A stretch of DNA of 64,000 nt from an uncultured virus (IMG/VR IMGVR_UViG_3300035208_004867) (lineage: Duplodnaviria; Heunggongvirae; Uroviricota; Caudoviricetes), in the IMG/VR virus record IMGVR_UViG_3300035208_004867; one strand, 5' to 3'. The notes beneath the pieces were generated by a model. It was not told where the DNA came from. It worked only from the letters and a program-made list of their open reading frames with translations, and made no database searches. This document shows positions 22,755-33,836 of this stretch, in pieces. The first letter of the stretch is position 1; every line of letters begins with the position of its first letter. A program made the translations under genes and the position numbers.

Positions 22755-22897
22755 TTTTATTTTTAAGGACGGTTAAAATGGACGGATTTATTGATGGTCC
22801 CTACGTTGTAGGGGAAAAGATTGCATACGGATACGATATTTATACAGTAACATTAAGCAGGATAGATGCCACGCCTTCAGGCTGGCATGTGAACTGC

Positions 22898-23302
22898 TTA
22901 TCCCTGATTTTCTATATAATGTTTCAACGTCTTATCAGAAACAACTCCTATTGAAGAACAGAAATAACCCCTAGTCCACAGGTGATGTTTACCGCTCCAG
23001 TAGAAAGACTTCATATAATCATTATGTTTCATCCATACGTCACTGGTTGAAACCTGTTTAAGGCTTCTTATAATATCACAGACACGGCATGAAGGCGTTG
23101 CGGATATCATAAAATGTATGTGGTCATAATCTGTTTCCATAACTTCTATTTTCCACTTATCCTGCATCGATTCAGCCCTTCTCATTGAAGAAACAACATC
23201 ATCCTTTATCATATAAAGACATCTTTTTCGGTATTTTGTAGAAAATATGATATGATATCTTATTATGAATTTTTCATGATTAAGCGTATGATATCTGTCC
23301 AT
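22898..23302 (-). CDS. tnpA: IS200-type Y1 HUH transposase
   Basis: YHIIFSTKYR, DHIH, LWTRGYF, YIENQ. Confidence 0.96.
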   Translation of the reverse strand: MDRYHTLNHEKFIIRYHIIFSTKYRKRCLYMIKDDVVSSMRRAESMQDKWKIEVMETDYDHIHFMISATPSCRVCDIIRSLKQVSTSDVWMKHNDYMKSFYWSGKHHLWTRGYFCSSIGVVSDKTLKHYIENQG

Positions 23303-23390
23303 ATATCAAATATAACGTATGTAGTATAATTTGTCAATATATATATGAATGTACTTGACATTTTCTACTAACTTATAGTATATTATTTAT

Positions 23391-24677
23391 ATGGATGCAC
23401 GGGAAGACAAAAACAGACATATAGCAGAAACTATAAAGCATACGTATGAGAAACGTGCAGAGCAGATATGCCGTGTCTTCACTGTCAAGGTTCAGGATAA
23501 CAAACTGTCCAAAAGACAGCGAGAACAGCTTAAGATGATGTTCGTTGAAGCAAAGTGGCTTAAAAACTCAATACTTGCATGGTCAAATAATAACCCTGAT
23601 AACAAGATATGGGACTATGATACAAAACAGAACGTAATAACACATAAAGATAAAGATATGCATGATGTAGAAGTAGAACTTAAATATATTCCTGCATCAG
23701 TTAAGCAGTGTGTTCAGTCTGAAATGATAGCAAATATAAGGACTATAAGTTCATTGAATAAGAAAGGATTGCAGAAAGGAGGAAAACTTAAATTCGTAAG
23801 CGAAGTTAAGTCACTTAACTTTAAACAGTACGGCAAGACGCATAGGATAGTATCATCAAAGAGGATAAAGTTGCAGGGTGTCTCTGGTACGGTTACGGTT
23901 AACGGTATGAACCAGTTTTATGGTACTGACGTTGAATATGCCAATGCAAAACTGCTGAATACACCTCTTGGGTATTATGTGCAGTTTACTACATATCAGG
24001 CAAAAAGCAGTATTGTAAAGAAAGAAGACAATGGTAAAGTTATAGGTATAGACTTCGGGTGTTCTACTGCCTTTACGACAAGTGAAGGGGAAAAAATACC
24101 TGCGTCAATTCAAGAAAGTGAACGTATAAAGCGTCTTTCAGCAAAGATGAACAGACGTCAGATAAAAGGTTCAAAGAACTGGTACAGGACAGTAGGACAG
24201 ATAAGGAAAGAATATCAGAAGATGACAAACCGGAAGAACGATCTTGCCAATAAGATAACTGCTTATTTCAATGAATACAAAACCATTGTTATTCAGGACG
24301 AACAGCTTTCAAACTGGATGAAGGGCAACCACGGAAAAGCGGTACAGCATTCAGTTATGGGAAGAGTAAAGGCTAAACTTATGCTCAACCCTAAGACTAT
24401 AGTACTTTCAAAAACTGTGCCGACTACAAAGTTGTGTACTTCATGCGGTCAGTATCATGATGATATGAAGGTATGGGACAGGACGTTCACATGCGGATGC
24501 GGAGTAAACATGGACAGGGATGTTCATGCCGCACTTGATATGGTATGGTTTTATGAGCATAATGTAGGTGTGGGACACACCAATTTCAAGCGTGCGGAGA
24601 TGGAAGCTCTGGTTTTAAGTGCTTTAAGTACCGGGAACCAACTTGCGTCTGTGAAACACGAAGCTGACTGTCTTTAG
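23391..24677 (+). CDS. tnpB: RNA-guided endonuclease TnpB
   Basis: GIDFG (RuvC I), IVIQDE (RuvC II variant), CTSCG..CGCG zinc finger, DRDVHAA (RuvC III). Confidence 0.93.
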   Translation: MDAREDKNRHIAETIKHTYEKRAEQICRVFTVKVQDNKLSKRQREQLKMMFVEAKWLKNSILAWSNNNPDNKIWDYDTKQNVITHKDKDMHDVEVELKYIPASVKQCVQSEMIANIRTISSLNKKGLQKGGKLKFVSEVKSLNFKQYGKTHRIVSSKRIKLQGVSGTVTVNGMNQFYGTDVEYANAKLLNTPLGYYVQFTTYQAKSSIVKKEDNGKVIGIDFGCSTAFTTSEGEKIPASIQESERIKRLSAKMNRRQIKGSKNWYRTVGQIRKEYQKMTNRKNDLANKITAYFNEYKTIVIQDEQLSNWMKGNHGKAVQHSVMGRVKAKLMLNPKTIVLSKTVPTTKLCTSCGQYHDDMKVWDRTFTCGCGVNMDRDVHAALDMVWFYEHNVGVGHTNFKRAEMEALVLSALSTGNQLASVKHEADCL

Positions 24678-24713
24678 GCTGTCAGTAGTTCACTGTCTTA
24701 TTACGACAGCAAA
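24565..24713 (+). ncRNA. Cis omega/reRNA of the IS with flanking guide TGTCTTATTACGACAGC...
   Basis: Overlaps the tnpB 3' end and the right end, as established for IS605 elements. Confidence 0.75.
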
Positions 24714-24790
24714 AAACGTCTTACTGGAGAAGAAACACTTTTCCAGCACAGAATAAAAAGAGTGATTTTTTTCTGAATAATATTAGGATG

Positions 24791-24820
24791 TTATACGGAA
24801 CCGTATAAAATATGTTGGAT
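24791..24820 (+). repeat. Degenerate attC-like palindrome plus GTTRRRY core
   Basis: TTATACGGAACCGTATAA-AATAT-GTTGGAT; 26 bp identical to 33491-33516. Confidence 0.55.
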
Positions 24821-24879
24821 GGACGCTTTAGCCGCACAAGCAGCGGGCGCTTATGCGGACAGACCGCAAGGAGAAAAGC

Positions 24880-29955: not shown

Positions 29956-30306
29956 ATGGACGAACCACAACTTGAGCTGTTTGAAAATCTTCCGGTAAAA
30001 ACAAAAGGAAGAACCATTGATGAATCTTTTGCAGAATTTGACGAAAAGAATCCGCATGTGTACCGCAATCTTGTAAAGCTCGCGTGTCAGTGTAAAAGTT
30101 CAGGACGTAACGTTGTAGGTATTGCGCTGCTGTATGAAAAGCTCCGGTGGGATTACATGATACAAACTGATGGTGAAGATTATAAACTACCTAACAACTA
30201 TGCTTCCCGGTATGCAAGAAAAATAATGGCAGAGAACGAAGAACTTGACGGGATATTCAGGACGGCGGCTTTAAGACCGAAAAAAGGACGTAAGTATGGA
30301 AAATGA
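29956..30306 (+). CDS. Conserved phage hypothetical protein
   Basis: FDEKNPHVY...YEKLRW...YKLPNNY.SRYARKIM. Confidence 0.7.
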   Translation: MDEPQLELFENLPVKTKGRTIDESFAEFDEKNPHVYRNLVKLACQCKSSGRNVVGIALLYEKLRWDYMIQTDGEDYKLPNNYASRYARKIMAENEELDGIFRTAALRPKKGRKYGK

Positions 30307-30952
30307 AATAAAAGGTAAATGTTTCTCAAAATGTGACAGAGGGCAGCGGAATAAACATGATTTTTATCAGACTCCGTACAGTATGACAAGACAGTTCCTT
30401 GACAGAGTAGTAATCCCTGACGGATCACTTATTCTTGAACCATGCTGCGGGAACGGAGCAATAGTTAACATTCTTAAAGAGAGAAATTTAAATATAATAA
30501 ATCATGATCTTTTTGTTGATGGTATAGATTTTTTAATTTATGAAAAAAAGTCTGATTATATTATCACTAATCCGCCGTTATCACTTTCAACGGAATTTAT
30601 TCTTCATTGCAAGAAGGTCGCAGAAAAACAATTCTGCCTTTTTATGCCGATAGAATATCTTCACGGGGAAGAAAGGTATAAGAAAATATACAGTATAGAC
30701 GACGGTTATCCACTTACTGATATATATGTTTTTACCAGACGTGCAATGCTCACCGATGAAGTAAGACCTGACGGAATGTATGATACCGGAATGGTAACGT
30801 GGGCTTGGTTTGTGTGGACAAAGATTGGCATTCAAAGAATACAAGGTTCCATTGATGATAAAAGAACATTTATCCCAAACCCGTCAATCCACTGGATAGA
30901 TAATAACGATTTTGTCATAAGAAACGGAAGAAGACGCTTGACAAAAGAGTAA
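30296..30952 (+). CDS. DNA amino-methyltransferase (NPPL variant)
   Basis: DFYQTP, ILEPCCGNG, IITNPPL, AWFVW. Confidence 0.85.
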   Translation: MENEIKGKCFSKCDRGQRNKHDFYQTPYSMTRQFLDRVVIPDGSLILEPCCGNGAIVNILKERNLNIINHDLFVDGIDFLIYEKKSDYIITNPPLSLSTEFILHCKKVAEKQFCLFMPIEYLHGEERYKKIYSIDDGYPLTDIYVFTRRAMLTDEVRPDGMYDTGMVTWAWFVWTKIGIQRIQGSIDDKRTFIPNPSIHWIDNNDFVIRNGRRRLTKE

Positions 30953-30966
30953 ATCAGATTTATTAT
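30938..30966 (+). promoter_or_regulatory. Sigma70 promoter for the ncRNA locus
   Basis: TTGACA-17-TATTAT. Confidence 0.8.
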
Positions 30967-31119
30967 AAATAATCCTTGCCCGTACGGGCTGGAAATATGC
31001 GGATAACCGGCAATACGGGTTATAGTAATTATAGTGGTTTATTAACATTTTACCTTACACCCTGTGAGGGGACAAGCACCGGAGTTTCCGGAGGCAGCAA
31101 GTCAAGACGGGGAATTTAT

Positions 31120-31255
31120 GGTTCTGTAGTTCAGTGGTAGAACGGGCGCATATTCTACGCCAGCGAGCCTCAATCGTAAATGATTTTTACGGTATTAGTA
31201 AAGGCCAATGTAGATTAATCATCTACAAGCGCAGGTTCAAATCCTGCCGGAACCT
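31120..31255 (+). ncRNA. tRNA-like RNA with a ~70-nt structured insert
   Basis: Acceptor GGTTCTG/CGGAACC, D-arm GTTC-AGTGGTA-GAAC, T-arm GCAGG-TTCAAAT-CCTGC; non-canonical anticodon arm. Confidence 0.8.
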
Positions 31256-31342
31256 TAACTCGAAGTAGCAACGAGTATAAAAAAACTTACGTCTCGTGCT
31301 GATATATGGCGTTGTCGGACGTTGGAAGTCCCGAAATAACTA

Positions 31343-31519
31343 AACATGTTTGGCTCGACAAAGAGAGCTGAGTGTCTGGAACAGACCTCCGTGGACAGAC
31401 TCGTAAATACTGCGTTATTGGTGAAAACCGGTAATGTAGCAAACAGTCTGGGTGAAGCGAAAATTAAAGTTGCCTGCCTTTAGGCTGGCGGTAGTTCACA
31501 CAGTCATTTTTAGTAGGCT
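31343..31519 (+). ncRNA. Orphan TnpB omega/reRNA scaffold plus putative guide
   Basis: 31466-31499 is 28/34 identical to the IS right end with structure-preserving changes and ends in GTAGTTCAC; no tnpB ORF in front. Confidence 0.8.
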
Positions 31520-31875
31520 ATTCAGCCTATAGCTACCATGTTCCGGCTGGGGCAAACGCCGCCGTCAGGGTGATAACTAAGCCTGAAAAAAAGGATAGGA
31601 CGGTAAAATATGAAGAAATCATACTTAGAAGAAATCAATTTTGTTTGTGCTGATTTTTCATGGAATAACGGAGAAGCGAAAAAAATTTTAATTCAGGAAC
31701 TGTTTCACCGGTTAAACATCGATATCACCAATTATGAATATGTATTCGGGATGGACTGGATATCAATATCTAAAGACAGAAAAATAATATCAGGATACAA
31801 TGAAAAATGTATCAATGCCAAAGAAATTACCGTAAATGACATGCTTACCGGAAATTATTGAAAGAGGAATATATA

Positions 31876-32763
31876 ATGGATAACGAAACGATTAAACAGA
31901 AACTTTTATCTCTTGAAATTCCTGCAAGTGATTTTACAGTTGTTCTTACCGGAAAATCAAATAAACGTGTGAACGGACTGTATAAACCGGATACAAAAGA
32001 AATTCTGATCCATAACAAGAATTTCACAACTGACAACGCAATGATGTATACGGCAATACATGAATTCACACATCATGTATGTACTGACCGTAAACTTGTA
32101 AAATCTGTAACCGGACATAGTACTGTCTTCTGGGCAATGTTTCACTCAATTGTAGATATTGCCGTACAAAAAGGCGTATACGTTGATCCGTTTACAACAG
32201 ATAACGAATTGCAGACAGAAGGGAACAAGGTTCTTGAAATAATCAAAGAACAGAATGAAACCATGCACAGACTGGGACTTGAATTTTATACTATGCAGTC
32301 TGTATGCACGGAAAAAGGTGCACGCATTGAAGATTTTATAGATCGCCATGCAAGAACGACAAAAAGAGCTGTAGTAACAGCAATAAAATCTCAGCTTGAA
32401 TTGTTCGACTTAAAAGATTTATCTCCACAGATGATAGATGCTATTGCCGGATGTTCTGAAGGGGAAAAAAGGGACGAAGCTGTTGCACGAGCAGAAGACG
32501 GACAGACTATAGATCAGATACGTGCTACTGTAAAACAAGGTAAAGATATAAATCCTTTTAAGGCTCCTGTAAGCGAACCAATGCAGAAAGAAGATCTGCT
32601 TGATAGTCTTGTAACCGAAAGGGCAAGAATACAAAAGACGATTGAACAGCTTACTATCCACATGCAGGAAGTTGATATTAATATAGCACAACTTAGAAAA
32701 GAGTTGCCGCATCTTGAGTTTGATCCTGATAGTGAAATAAATGAAGAACAAGAGGAGAAGTAA
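31876..32763 (+). CDS. SprT-like zinc metalloprotease domain protein
   Basis: TAIHEFTHH...GHSTVFW. Confidence 0.75.
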   Translation: MDNETIKQKLLSLEIPASDFTVVLTGKSNKRVNGLYKPDTKEILIHNKNFTTDNAMMYTAIHEFTHHVCTDRKLVKSVTGHSTVFWAMFHSIVDIAVQKGVYVDPFTTDNELQTEGNKVLEIIKEQNETMHRLGLEFYTMQSVCTEKGARIEDFIDRHARTTKRAVVTAIKSQLELFDLKDLSPQMIDAIAGCSEGEKRDEAVARAEDGQTIDQIRATVKQGKDINPFKAPVSEPMQKEDLLDSLVTERARIQKTIEQLTIHMQEVDINIAQLRKELPHLEFDPDSEINEEQEEK

Positions 32764-33077
32764 TGACTCCTAAGAAAATTACCAGATATGATATTGTGGA
32801 AAATGTATATTACAAGACAAAAATAAGTAAAAAAGTTGTGAAACGGATTTTTGAATATTTAATAAAAGAGTTGATAGAAGCTCTTGAAAACGGATCAACA
32901 ATTGAAATCCGTGGATTCGGAACTTTTGAACAGTGTTTAAGAGATAGGAAGATGTCACACAATCCTCAGACAGGGGAAAAAATTGTCATGAGTCCGTATT
33001 ATAAAGTTAAATTTAAGCCAGGTATAGAACTGGACAGAGAAATGCGCAAGATAAAAACAGGAGAAAAAAATGACTGA
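32763..33077 (+). CDS. HU/IHF-family DNA-binding protein
   Basis: IEIRGFGTFE, NPQTGEKI, VKFKPG. Confidence 0.92.
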   Translation: MTPKKITRYDIVENVYYKTKISKKVVKRIFEYLIKELIEALENGSTIEIRGFGTFEQCLRDRKMSHNPQTGEKIVMSPYYKVKFKPGIELDREMRKIKTGEKND

Positions 33078-33486
33078 TGTTAACAGGTGGGTTGGAATAG
33101 GAAGACTTACAAGGGATGCAGACTTGACGTTTACGAAAGAAAGCAATATGGCTATCGGGAAAATATCTATTGCTGTAAACAGGAGTGTAAAGCACGGAGA
33201 AGAATGGGCTGATGAAGTAAGTTACTTTGACGTGACGATATTCGGGAAAACAGCAGAGAGTCTTAAACCGTACCTTTTAAAAGGTCAGCAGGTTGCCATA
33301 GACGGACATTTGCAGCAGGACAGATGGCAGAAGGACGGACAGAATTACAGCAAAGTAGTTATTATATGTGAAACAATCCAGCTTCTGGGTGGTAAGAAAA
33401 ATGATTCAGGAGATACGAATCAGACACCTAAATTTGTACCAAAACAAACCGATAACGGGCAGTTCCCTGAAGATATACCTTTTTAG
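33070..33486 (+). CDS. ssb: Single-stranded DNA-binding protein
   Basis: GRLTRD OB fold, C-terminal EDIPF. Confidence 0.96.
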   Translation: MTDVNRWVGIGRLTRDADLTFTKESNMAIGKISIAVNRSVKHGEEWADEVSYFDVTIFGKTAESLKPYLLKGQQVAIDGHLQQDRWQKDGQNYSKVVIICETIQLLGGKKNDSGDTNQTPKFVPKQTDNGQFPEDIPF

Positions 33487-33836
33487 AAGTTTATACGGAA
33501 CCGTATAAAATATGTTATGCGGACGTTTAGCGGCATAACTGCGTTACGCCGACAACGCACCAAGTTTTTGACACAGATTATAGGATGAAGAAAATGGACG
33601 AATTATTGTTACAAGAAATTTTTTCATTGCGTGAAAAAGTTAAAATATTAGCACGTCTTCTTGCAAAATATGAGCCTGAACTCGAATTGAGTGGACTGAT
33701 ACATGACGTTGGAACAGAGGACGCGTGTTGATTCTTTGAAGGTGCCAAAAACACCGAACAAGCTAATCAACCTATCTCGGAACAATAGTTTTCCGCAGAT
33801 TAAATCATAGCCGATTACGCACCAAGGAGGTGCACG

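What the first reader, a model, noticed from the sequence alone, without database searches (positions are those of the whole stretch)
31343..31530. Orphan TnpB omega-RNA with its own guide in a phage ncRNA operon, a possible trans-guide for the phage TnpB
Seen: 31466-31499 (AAAGTTGCCTGCCTTTAGGCTGGCGGTAGTTCAC) matches the IS right end 24660-24693 at 28/34. The five stem changes preserve pairing, including an A-T to C-G covariation. The upstream scaffold is also mirrored (hairpin GTCTG-GAA-CAGAC vs GTGTG-GGA-CACAC; GTGAAGCG vs GTGAAACA). No tnpB gene or left-end hairpin precedes it, only a short tnpB-C-terminus-like remnant (NMFGSTKRAECLEQ). It lies downstream of a consensus promoter (30938) and a tRNA-like RNA. 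The putative guide ACAGTCATTTTTAG.. is followed by a TAGGCT/AGCCTA hairpin. Known: IS605 right ends encode the reRNA, the 3' flank is the guide, and the tetranucleotide 5' of the hairpin directs TnpA cleavage; here it is AAAG rather than GAAG. Inference: an immobilised, independently expressed guide that could direct the TnpB at 23391 to a host or competitor target.
Basis: partly seen in the sequence, partly recalled or inferred. Interest (0 to 1): 0.88.

Follow-up and report, generated by a model that had tools for sequence, protein, structure and literature searches.

The report
Solo guide-RNA end of a foreign IS
The phage carries the cut-off right end of a second IS605-type transposon, which still encodes a complete guide-RNA scaffold; that element belongs to a different branch from the phage's own TnpB nuclease and is missing from the closest related phage, so it is most likely a recent transposon remnant.

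Summary
Window 31466-31499 matches the resident IS right end 24660-24693 at 28/34; 200 shuffles of the window gave at most 23. The five stem changes keep pairing.

The orphan is not a copy of the resident IS. It is a 5'-truncated right end (31347-31499, last 45 tnpB codons plus stop) of a different IS200/IS605 clade. TnpBs of that clade are 36% identical to the resident TnpB.

A covariance model of 19 TnpB-linked omega-RNAs of that clade scores the orphan 112.5 bits over its full length, with 28/32 pairs canonical. The resident right end scores 35 bits on it. The resident-clade model gives the orphan 23.8 bits against 122 for its own.

Contigs from the same communities carry near-identical scaffold copies preceded by intact tnpB and followed by several different flanks.

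About 68 kb of the phage holds no cognate TnpB. No left end lies beside the orphan. The nearest relative (81% nt) has a different 1.6-kb cassette at this site and no omega-RNA. No target of the guide was found.

A near-consensus promoter at 30938 with no terminator before 31610 makes read-through transcription likely.

Verdict: an intact but immobile IS remnant. Trans-guide function is possible but unsupported, and use by the resident TnpB is doubtful.

The parts
31347..31499 (+). Solo right end of a second IS200/IS605-family element ('parent clade'): a complete omega-RNA scaffold. It overlaps the last 45 codons plus stop of a lost tnpB (ORF 31346-31483). Helices by model R2: S1 31352-31356/31365-31369; S2 31370-31389; S3 31390-31393/31456-31459; S4 31396-31402/31445-31450, enclosing a central stem of about 31410-31438; terminal hairpin 31469-31492; tail AGTTCAC ending at 31499.
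   Evidence: R2 gives 112.5 bits, E 4e-32, model positions 1-160. The remnant is 93% identical to the C-terminus of TnpB P0001. Other contigs diverge exactly before 31347 and after 31499/31500.
31500..31519 (+). Putative guide: the 3' flank of the right end, ACAGTCATTTTTAGTAGG...
   Evidence: The position follows from the IS200/IS605 omega-RNA rule that the guide is the flank after the right end (established knowledge; passages of PMC10055086 and 10.1101/2023.11.30.569447). No second match in the window within 3 mismatches, in IMG/VR, in the phage collection or in plasmids.
31513..31530 (+). Small hairpin TAGGCTATTCAGCCTA after the guide; no T-run follows it.
   Evidence: Fold; no terminator-like site.
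30938..30966 (+). Sigma-70-type promoter-like site TTGACA-17-TATTAT. It is conserved in the related phage (TTGACA-17-TATAAT in L066).
   Evidence: L066 sequence.
31120..31255 (+). tRNA-like RNA with acceptor, D and T arms. The anticodon arm is replaced by about 85 nt.
   Evidence: Rfam tRNA 44.6 bits. ARAGORN finds none. Conserved in L066 with a compensatory acceptor-stem change.
22835..24693 (+). Resident complete IS200/IS605 element. Left-end boundary 22835-22839; left-end hairpin 22865-22894; tnpA 22898-23302 on the minus strand; tnpB 23391-24677; omega-RNA scaffold 24557-24693.
   Evidence: Pfam Y1_Tnp, OrfB_IS605 and Cas12f1-like_TNB. 82.6% identical copy in another context, L009. R1 gives 122.3 bits. 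D221/E304/D377 are invariant in the TnpB alignment.

Best explanation
The feature is an immobile solo right end. A second IS200/IS605-family element, or a gene-less mini-derivative of one, from a TnpB clade other than the resident one, lost everything upstream of window position 31347. What remains is the 153-nt omega-RNA scaffold plus its original flank.

Shown:
- Its identity, its clade, the intact secondary-structure scaffold and the truncation point.
- The lack of a left end beside it and of a cognate tnpB in about 68 kb of the phage.
- Its absence from the nearest relative.
- The co-occurrence of near-identical copies preceded by tnpB coding sequence in the same communities.

Inferred:
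- It is transcribed passively, by read-through from the promoter at 30938 through the tRNA-like gene.
- The RNA could fold as a guide RNA and would be loaded only if a TnpB of its own clade is present in the cell, from the host or another element.
- In this phage it is most likely a recent, not yet decayed scar with no selected function. Its intactness reflects youth, not selection.
For: (1) Clade identity. R2 was built from 19 TnpB-linked right ends and did not include the orphan. It has 32 pairs, 21 of them with compensatory changes. It scores the orphan 112.5 bits over its full length, with 28/32 pairs canonical. Members outside the training set score 90.9 (L123), 128.5 (L156) and 143.4 (L153). 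Training members score 109-174. The resident right end scores 35 bits on R2. The orphan scores 23.8 bits on the resident-clade model R1, against 122.3 for the resident end.

(2) The 45-aa remnant retrieves full-length TnpBs: P0001 at 93%, P0003 at 82% and P0004 at 71% over the remnant. P0001 is 36% identical to the resident TnpB.

(3) Contigs of DNA runs X1, X2 and X4. Other contigs match 31347-31451 with 10-12 differences, or are identical over 31364-31436. They continue upstream into sequence that I read as ...DIHAARNVK, as in P0001. They continue downstream of 31499/31500 into at least four different flanks. Summed contig depth over 31392-31475 is 107 against about 20 (X1) and 431 against about 95 (X2).

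(4) No cognate TnpB in the window or in record G001. No left end.

(5) The related phage L066/L067 (about 81% nt identity, syntenic) has a 1.6-kb cassette here: a 218-aa ORF with a CxxxCxxC motif, a 215-aa ORF with a DPPY motif, and a P-loop gene fragment. It has no R2 hit.

(6) Promoter 11/12 and no terminator before 31610.
Against: - The truncation lies only 5 nt upstream of the first covariation-supported helix. The same 5' boundary (TGTTTGGCTC) is seen in a gene-less mini-element of another phage, L153.
- A tnpB-less contig context begins at 31346/31347 in X1 and X2. A chimeric 111-aa ORF, P0002, keeps the same C-terminal module.
- Recurrent retention of exactly the RNA module could reflect selection for the RNA.
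- The one orphan-specific stem change seen (31470, C in most other copies, T here) keeps pairing as G.U.
- Placement behind a strong promoter fits a role as an expressed RNA.
- Only one related phage lineage was available, so absence there is weak evidence. The phage genome is incomplete: G001 is estimated at 52% complete, so a cognate TnpB could lie in the unseen part.
Confidence: 0.62

Rival explanations
1. Hijack guide. The phage-borne solo omega-RNA is expressed from the promoter at 30938 and loaded by a TnpB of its own clade that is encoded by the host or by a co-resident element. It directs that nuclease to a TAM-flanked target matching ACAGTCATTTTTAGTAGG. From recall, the analogy is virus-borne mini-CRISPR arrays that use host Cas proteins.
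For: The scaffold is intact and full-length for its clade. Parent-clade copies preceded by tnpB coding sequence are abundant in the same communities. Promoter and no terminator. Gene-less omega-RNA mini-elements occur about 5 kb from same-clade TnpB ISs in 2 of 24 other phage records. The Discussion of PMC10055086 says PATEs often encode omega-RNAs that TnpB must act on in trans (passages read).
Against: No target was found in the window, IMG/VR, the phage collection or plasmids. The host is unknown. The orphan is absent from the only related phage lineage. The copy is young, so intactness proves nothing. It has no promoter of its own directly upstream, unlike L153.
Confidence: 0.15
2. One reading: the orphan RNA is a second guide for the resident TnpB (23391-24677).
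For: Both scaffolds share the 3' 34 nt at 28/34, the tail GTAGTTCAC, a GGAAC/GGGAC-loop hairpin, a GTGAAGCG/GTGAAACA motif and the same 127-nt length from that hairpin to the end. The resident TnpB keeps the invariant RuvC residues of the alignment, D221, E304 and D377. The left ends of the two clades have the same architecture, so the elements are related.
Against: Cross-model scores are low: orphan on R1 23.8 bits against 122.3 for the resident end; resident end on R2 35 bits against 112.5 for the orphan. Most of each cross score comes from the 3' hairpin. The cognate-type TnpB is only 36% identical to the resident one. Around the scaffold-encoding C-terminus it has 9 fewer and then 8 more residues in the BLASTP alignment. 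The orphan's clade has an extra 5' helix, S1. In all 26 of 31 strong R2 hits where it could be judged, the R2-type RNA sits behind a gene that TnpB queries hit, and in the 2 gene-less cases a same-clade TnpB IS lies in the same record.
Confidence: 0.08
3. DNA-level role or hazard. The orphan hairpin serves as an alternative right end for the resident TnpA. Left end (22835) to orphan right end (31499) would then behave as an 8.66-kb composite that can be excised or moved.
For: The 3' arm of the orphan hairpin (GGCTGGC) is identical, 7/7, to that of the resident left-end hairpin. The resident right end has GGCTGTC. The loops are TTTA and TTCA, and the cleavage-site tail TCAC is the same. tnpA is present (Pfam Y1_Tnp, E 3.5e-26).
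Against: No evidence of such a joint: no joints were reported on the stretch laid, and that stretch did not include the left end. Excision would delete essential-looking replication genes. This describes a liability, not a function.
Confidence: 0.05

Closest known systems
IS200/IS605 right-end-encoded omega-RNA (reRNA) of TnpB
   Same: Subterminal imperfect hairpin, conserved tail, scaffold overlapping the tnpB 3' end, and the guide taken from the 3' flank. The scaffold fits a clade model at 112.5 bits.
   Different: No tnpB upstream, no left end, so it cannot transpose or home. The only TnpB in the known genome is from another clade (36% identity).
PATEs (palindrome-associated transposable elements): gene-less IS200/IS605 derivatives with a left end and a right end that encode omega-RNAs used in trans (Discussion passage of PMC10055086)
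   Same: A tnpB-less omega-RNA module. The 5' boundary of the RNA module is the same as in the mini-element L153 found here.
   Different: PATEs keep a left end and are mobilisable. L153 also keeps the tnpB promoter directly before the RNA. The orphan has neither.
TldR guide RNAs: domesticated TnpB-like repressors, some phage-encoded (passages of 10.1101/2023.11.30.569447 and 10.64898/2026.09.22.753285)
   Same: A phage setting, and a guide no longer serving transposon homing.
   Different: TldR guides sit beside a nuclease-dead TnpB-like gene and match host promoters. Here there is no adjacent protein gene, no known target, and the resident TnpB keeps its catalytic residues.
Virus-borne mini-CRISPR arrays or solitary repeat units that use host Cas proteins (recalled; no paper read here)
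   Same: A guide without its effector on a viral genome. This is the model for the novel reading.
   Different: A different RNA class. Nothing here shows that a host effector exists or that a target is matched.

Membership tests
TnpB omega-RNA / IS200-IS605 right end, 'parent' clade (model R2) | Covariation-supported scaffold (helices S1-S5) and conserved tail | tested here: met
   112.5 bits, E 4e-32, model 1-160, 28/32 pairs canonical. Non-training members score 90.9-143.4.
TnpB omega-RNA / IS200-IS605 right end, 'parent' clade (model R2) | Scaffold overlaps the 3' end of a tnpB reading frame | tested here: met
   The 45-codon open remnant is 93% identical to the C-terminus of P0001. The stop lies in the hairpin loop, as in the resident IS.
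TnpB omega-RNA / IS200-IS605 right end, 'parent' clade (model R2) | A tnpB gene immediately upstream | tested here: not met
   tblastn with P0001, P0003 and P0004 finds only the resident tnpB and the remnant. The same holds in G001.
TnpB omega-RNA / IS200-IS605 right end, 'parent' clade (model R2) | The RNA is expressed, processed and bound by TnpB | not testable with these tools
   No RNA run was available to lay. Only the promoter and the absence of a terminator are seen.
Omega-RNA of the resident IS clade (model R1) | Fit to the scaffold model of the resident TnpB's clade | tested here: not met
   23.8 bits against 122.3 for the resident end. The upstream helices are marked non-canonical in the alignment.
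PATE (gene-less IS200/IS605 mini-element) | Left-end hairpin paired with the right end | tested here: not met
   No copy of the resident left end within 3 mismatches other than 22865-22894. No hairpin-only R2 hit near the orphan. Sequence 31256 to about 31325 is phage backbone shared with L066.
TldR-type domesticated guide | Adjacent nuclease-dead TnpB-like gene and a guide matching a promoter target | tested here: not met
   No adjacent TnpB-like gene. The resident TnpB keeps D221/E304/D377. No guide match.

The most novel reading that the evidence does not exclude
A phage keeps an effector-less omega-RNA behind a strong promoter in order to arm a TnpB nuclease that it does not encode. The effector would be a host or co-resident TnpB of the orphan's clade or, less likely, its own cross-clade TnpB. 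The target would be a host or rival-element site. This would be a TnpB counterpart of virus-borne mini-CRISPR arrays. The recurrent trimming of such elements to exactly the RNA module (orphan, L153, P0002, a contig in X1/X2) would then reflect selection for free-standing guides.
Probability: 0.15. Interest if true: 0.8.

Novelty: new member of a known kind. Interest (0 to 1): 0.35.

Why it matters
If it is only a scar, it is a clean and datable example of how IS605-family elements decay in phage genomes, and a warning: similarity of two right ends in one genome does not make them a TnpB/guide pair.

If the RNA is used, it would show that TnpB guides can be uncoupled from their transposon and traded between genomes. 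That is a step on the road from selfish homing to programmable defence or regulation.

The by-product may be more useful than the orphan itself. These are two gene-less mini-elements (left end, then omega-RNA; L153 also keeps a promoter), each lying about 5 kb from a same-clade TnpB IS in another phage. There the effector and the extra guide are cognate and can be tested directly.

Tried and rejected
- Own assembly not held. The nearest record, G001, is the same phage at 100% identity over the stretches compared, so it says nothing on conservation.
- IMG/VR searches returned only the same phage. Tried: the neighbouring methyltransferase, the exact orphan hairpin and a degenerate two-copy hairpin pattern.
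- SSB relatives L062 and L063 are too distant; only SSB is shared.
- The phage collection had no match to 30900-31650.
The same question was answered with the search for homologous proteins.
- tblastn with resident-clade TnpBs against the IS-masked window gave no hit at the orphan among the rows I could see; the output was cut.
- A tblastn extension of P0001 to 31304 I reject as spurious. That stretch is shared with the IS-free relative, and other contigs diverge at 31346/31347.
- The ungapped 'H1 = GTCTGGAACAGAC' alignment conflicts with the protein alignment anchored on KRAE. I leave the homology of that hairpin open.
- Guide searches: the 18-mer hit only itself in IMG/VR and had no second site in the window within 3 mismatches. 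Bases 31500-31535 gave two chance-level hits (E 5) in Streptococcus phages and none in plasmids.
- Sequencing runs: no RNA holder listed. All four runs laid are DNA contigs, and X1 and X2 may be the window's own source.
- Five other phage records with resident-clade TnpBs: 8 strong R1 matches, the one not already known (L059) also tnpB-linked, and 1 weak partial match not examined; no orphan seen.
- Literature: searches with 'TnpB/orphan/omegaRNA', 'TnpB/palindrome-associated transposable/in trans', 'TnpB/phage-encoded/guide RNAs/without/non-autonomous' and 'TnpB/non-cognate/orthogonal/scaffold' listed no paper on left-end-less solo omega-RNAs or on cross-clade TnpB/omega-RNA use. I read only listings and the passages named. 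The search tool cannot match the Greek letter omega.
- The search of earlier findings returned nothing.

Full report
SETTING. The window is a tailed phage. PHROGs finds tail sheath, portal, major head, terminase, and RecE/RecT- and SSB-like genes. GC is 38% and 76 of 84 long ORFs lie on the + strand. Relatives of its TnpB lie in MAG contigs labelled Clostridia, Bacilli and Erysipelotrichaceae, among other labels, and in many viral contigs. A Firmicute host is therefore likely, but this is an inference.

THE RESIDENT IS. A complete IS200/IS605 element lies at about 22835/22839-24693. It has tnpA (Y1_Tnp, E 3.5e-26) at 22898-23302 on the minus strand and tnpB at 23391-24677 (OrfB_IS605 and Cas12f1-like_TNB). 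D221, E304 and D377 are invariant among ten relatives. The left-end hairpin is at 22865-22894. The ends are set by an 82.6% identical copy in another context: L009 1950-3803 matches window 22839-24693. The right end stops exactly after GTAGTTCAC.

THE OBSERVATION. Window 31466-31499 matches 24660-24693 at 28/34. The next best site in the window scores 20, and 200 shuffles gave 19-23. Five of the six differences lie in the stem and all keep pairing, including one A-U to C-G exchange (read). An ungapped alignment at offset 6806 gives 68/137 identities, 40/103 of them outside the last 34 nt. It keeps 26 of 41 pairs of the resident fold, against a null of 15.4 +/- 3.2; 0.06% of random window segments reach 26. 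The promoter, the tRNA-like RNA, the remnant ORF and the downstream hairpin are all as described.

WHAT IT IS, STEP 1: NOT THE RESIDENT CLADE. I built model R1 from 12 TnpB-linked right ends of the resident clade. Of the candidates, I left out the truncated L010, the divergent L015 and L018, and the distant Clostridium copies L031, L034 and L039. I did not examine cut or distant genome-contig loci. R1 has 17 pairs, 9 of them with compensatory changes. It scores the resident end 122.3 bits and the orphan 23.8 bits, almost all from the 3' hairpin.

STEP 2: COPIES IN THE COMMUNITIES. Contigs of DNA runs X1, X2 and X4 were laid on 30300-32800. They show that 31347-31500 is a repeat in those communities. 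Summed contig depth in 31392-31475 is 107 against about 20 in X1 and 431 against about 95 in X2.
- Other contigs match 31347-31451 with 10-12 differences, or match 31364-31436 exactly.
- They run on before 31347 into sequence that I read as ...DIHAARNVK, a tnpB RuvC motif.
- They run on behind 31499/31500 into at least four different flanks.
- X1 and X2 may be the window's own source, so they are not independent of it. The extra contigs are still other loci.
These results fix both edges of the IS-derived piece. They also show that copies preceded by tnpB coding sequence co-occur with the phage.

STEP 3: THE PARENT TnpB. The 45-aa remnant retrieves full-length TnpBs: P0001 (429 aa, 93% over the remnant), P0003 (82%) and P0004 (71%). 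It also retrieves P0002, a 111-aa chimeric ORF that keeps only the C-terminal module. P0001 is 36% identical to the resident TnpB.

STEP 4: THE PARENT-CLADE MODEL. P0001 finds 29 viral loci. From 19 of their right ends I built model R2. I dropped exact or near duplicates (L104, L107, L109, L114, L115), L123 (variant tail), the truncated L118 and L122, and L124 and L125, which are the same records as L014 and L017. R2 has 32 pairs, 21 with compensatory changes.
- R2 scores the orphan 112.5 bits (E 4e-32) over all 160 positions, with 28 of 32 pairs canonical.
- It scores the resident end 35 bits.
- Members outside the training set score 90.9, 128.5 and 143.4. Training members score 109-174.
The orphan is therefore a complete, intact omega-RNA scaffold of another clade. 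The AAAG before its hairpin occurs in 2 of 19 clade members; 16 of 19 have GAAG. AAAG is also the majority state among the other copies in the contigs (31466 A>G in one contig each of X1 and X2). At 31470, most other copies have C where the orphan has T, which makes a G.U pair.

WHAT IS MISSING.
- No left end is near the orphan.
- No parent-clade tnpB is in the window or in G001, which extends the known genome to about 68 kb. G001 is rated 52% complete, so part of the genome is unseen.
- The only related lineage found is L066/L067 from metagenomes. Its 301-aa neighbour is 82% identical and its DNA about 81% identical.
- That relative is syntenic for methyltransferase, promoter and tRNA-like gene. 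Between the tRNA-like gene and the 301-aa gene it carries a 1.6-kb cassette: a 218-aa ORF with a CxxxCxxC motif, a 215-aa ORF with a DPPY motif, and a P-loop gene fragment. It has no R2 hit.
- Backbone similarity runs to about 31325 on the left and resumes at about 31534 on the right. The window-specific piece is therefore about 31326-31533, with the IS-derived part 31347-31499 inside it.
- The site is a variable spot that holds gene fragments, which fits a scar.

EXPRESSION. The promoter at 30938 scores 11/12 and is conserved in the relative. No terminator-like site lies between it and the ORF at 31610. Read-through transcription of the orphan on the correct strand is therefore likely; this is an inference. 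No promoter sits directly before the orphan. The mini-element L153, by contrast, has TTGCAA-17-TATAAT abutting the RNA start.

TARGET AND TAM. The guide has no other match in the window, IMG/VR, the phage collection or plasmids. Left-end flanks suggest the following:
- (A/T)TAC for the resident IS, from window and L009 sharing ..TAC|G...
- TTAC for L098 and L153.
- TGAC for the L112-type members.
These are inferences from few copies. TTAA is not supported.

HOW COMMON ARE tnpB-LESS MODULES?
- In five records with resident-clade TnpBs there were 8 strong R1 matches and 1 weak partial match that I did not examine. Seven of the strong ones were the tnpB-linked ends already known, and the eighth (L059) also lies at the end of a 428-aa ORF.
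- With R2, 24 records were searched. These cover the 29 loci; L105, L121 and L123 share records with others, and L124 and L125 were left out. There were 31 hits of 90 bits or more.
- Of those 31, 26 have a tnpB-like gene (tblastn hit) next to them. Three lie at contig ends and cannot be judged. Two (L153 in G010, L156 in G016) are gene-less left-end-plus-omega-RNA mini-elements, each about 5 kb from a same-clade TnpB IS in the same phage. The 20 weaker rows were not examined.
- In L153 the tnpB ORF is missing up to the same TGTTTGGCTC at which the orphan begins.
- Such PATE-like elements, and the idea that their RNAs need TnpB in trans, are in print (Discussion passage of PMC10055086).

JUDGEMENT.
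- Identity as a truncated foreign right end is close to certain.
- Whether the RNA is used is open. The copy is young, at most about 10% diverged from copies in the same samples, and identical to some of them over 73 nt. Its intactness therefore cannot be read as selection.
- The recurrent 5' boundary and the promoter context keep a functional reading alive.

Noticed in passing
window 31120-31255; L066 2051-2185: A tRNA-like gene with normal acceptor, D and T arms, whose anticodon arm and variable loop are replaced by about 85 nt. It is conserved in the related phage, with a compensatory change in the acceptor stem. The inserts differ between the two phages. Other contigs in X2 and X4 join 31144 to 31230 through a normal 22-nt arm, CTCGCCTCATAAGCGAGAATGA, which I read as a CAT anticodon. 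ARAGORN calls nothing.
   Followed up: partly
window 30973-31117: About 145 nt with several GC-rich hairpins lie between the promoter and the tRNA-like gene. The related phage L066 has no counterpart; there the tRNA-like gene follows the promoter directly. No Rfam match.
   Followed up: no
L153 (G010:47625-47788) and L156 (G016:29912-30075): Gene-less left-end-plus-omega-RNA mini-elements (PATE-like; 143.4 and 128.5 bits on R2). L153 also keeps a promoter-like site directly before the RNA. Each lies about 5 kb from a same-clade TnpB IS in the same phage record. They are candidate natural extra guides with a cognate effector.
   Followed up: partly
window 24783-24828 and 33483-33528: A 46-nt repeat (83% identical) around the palindrome TATACGGAACCGTATA. 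One copy lies just after the resident IS and one after the SSB gene. It may be a phage regulatory site.
   Followed up: no
window 31610-31861: An 83-aa ORF with no family match lies between the shared ribosome-binding region and the 301-aa gene. It is absent from the related phage and from the low-depth relative in run X4.
   Followed up: no
L066 2392-3692: At the orphan's site the related phage carries a 218-aa ORF with a CxxxCxxC motif (radical-SAM-like by eye) and a 215-aa ORF with a DPPY motif (methyltransferase-like by eye). A fragment with a P-loop motif follows. None was scanned against a family library.
   Followed up: no
window 24535-24563: A promoter-like site, TTGATA-17-CATAAT (10/12), lies inside the tnpB 3' end, just upstream of the resident omega-RNA scaffold.
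   Followed up: no
window 22865-22894 vs 31469-31492: The 3' arm of the resident left-end hairpin (GGCTGGC) is identical to that of the orphan hairpin. It is closer than to the resident right end (GGCTGTC). The resident TnpA might therefore recognise the orphan end.
   Followed up: no
L009 2465-3781 (+) and 4319-5716 (-): Two different TnpB genes, each with its own omega-RNA, face each other with about 500 bp between their right ends in a 15-kb viral contig.
   Followed up: partly
protein P0002 (111 aa, from a 651-nt contig): A chimeric ORF. About 60 unrelated residues are fused to the same TnpB C-terminal, omega-RNA-encoding module. It is another truncated copy, with a breakpoint a few codons upstream of the orphan's.
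   Followed up: no
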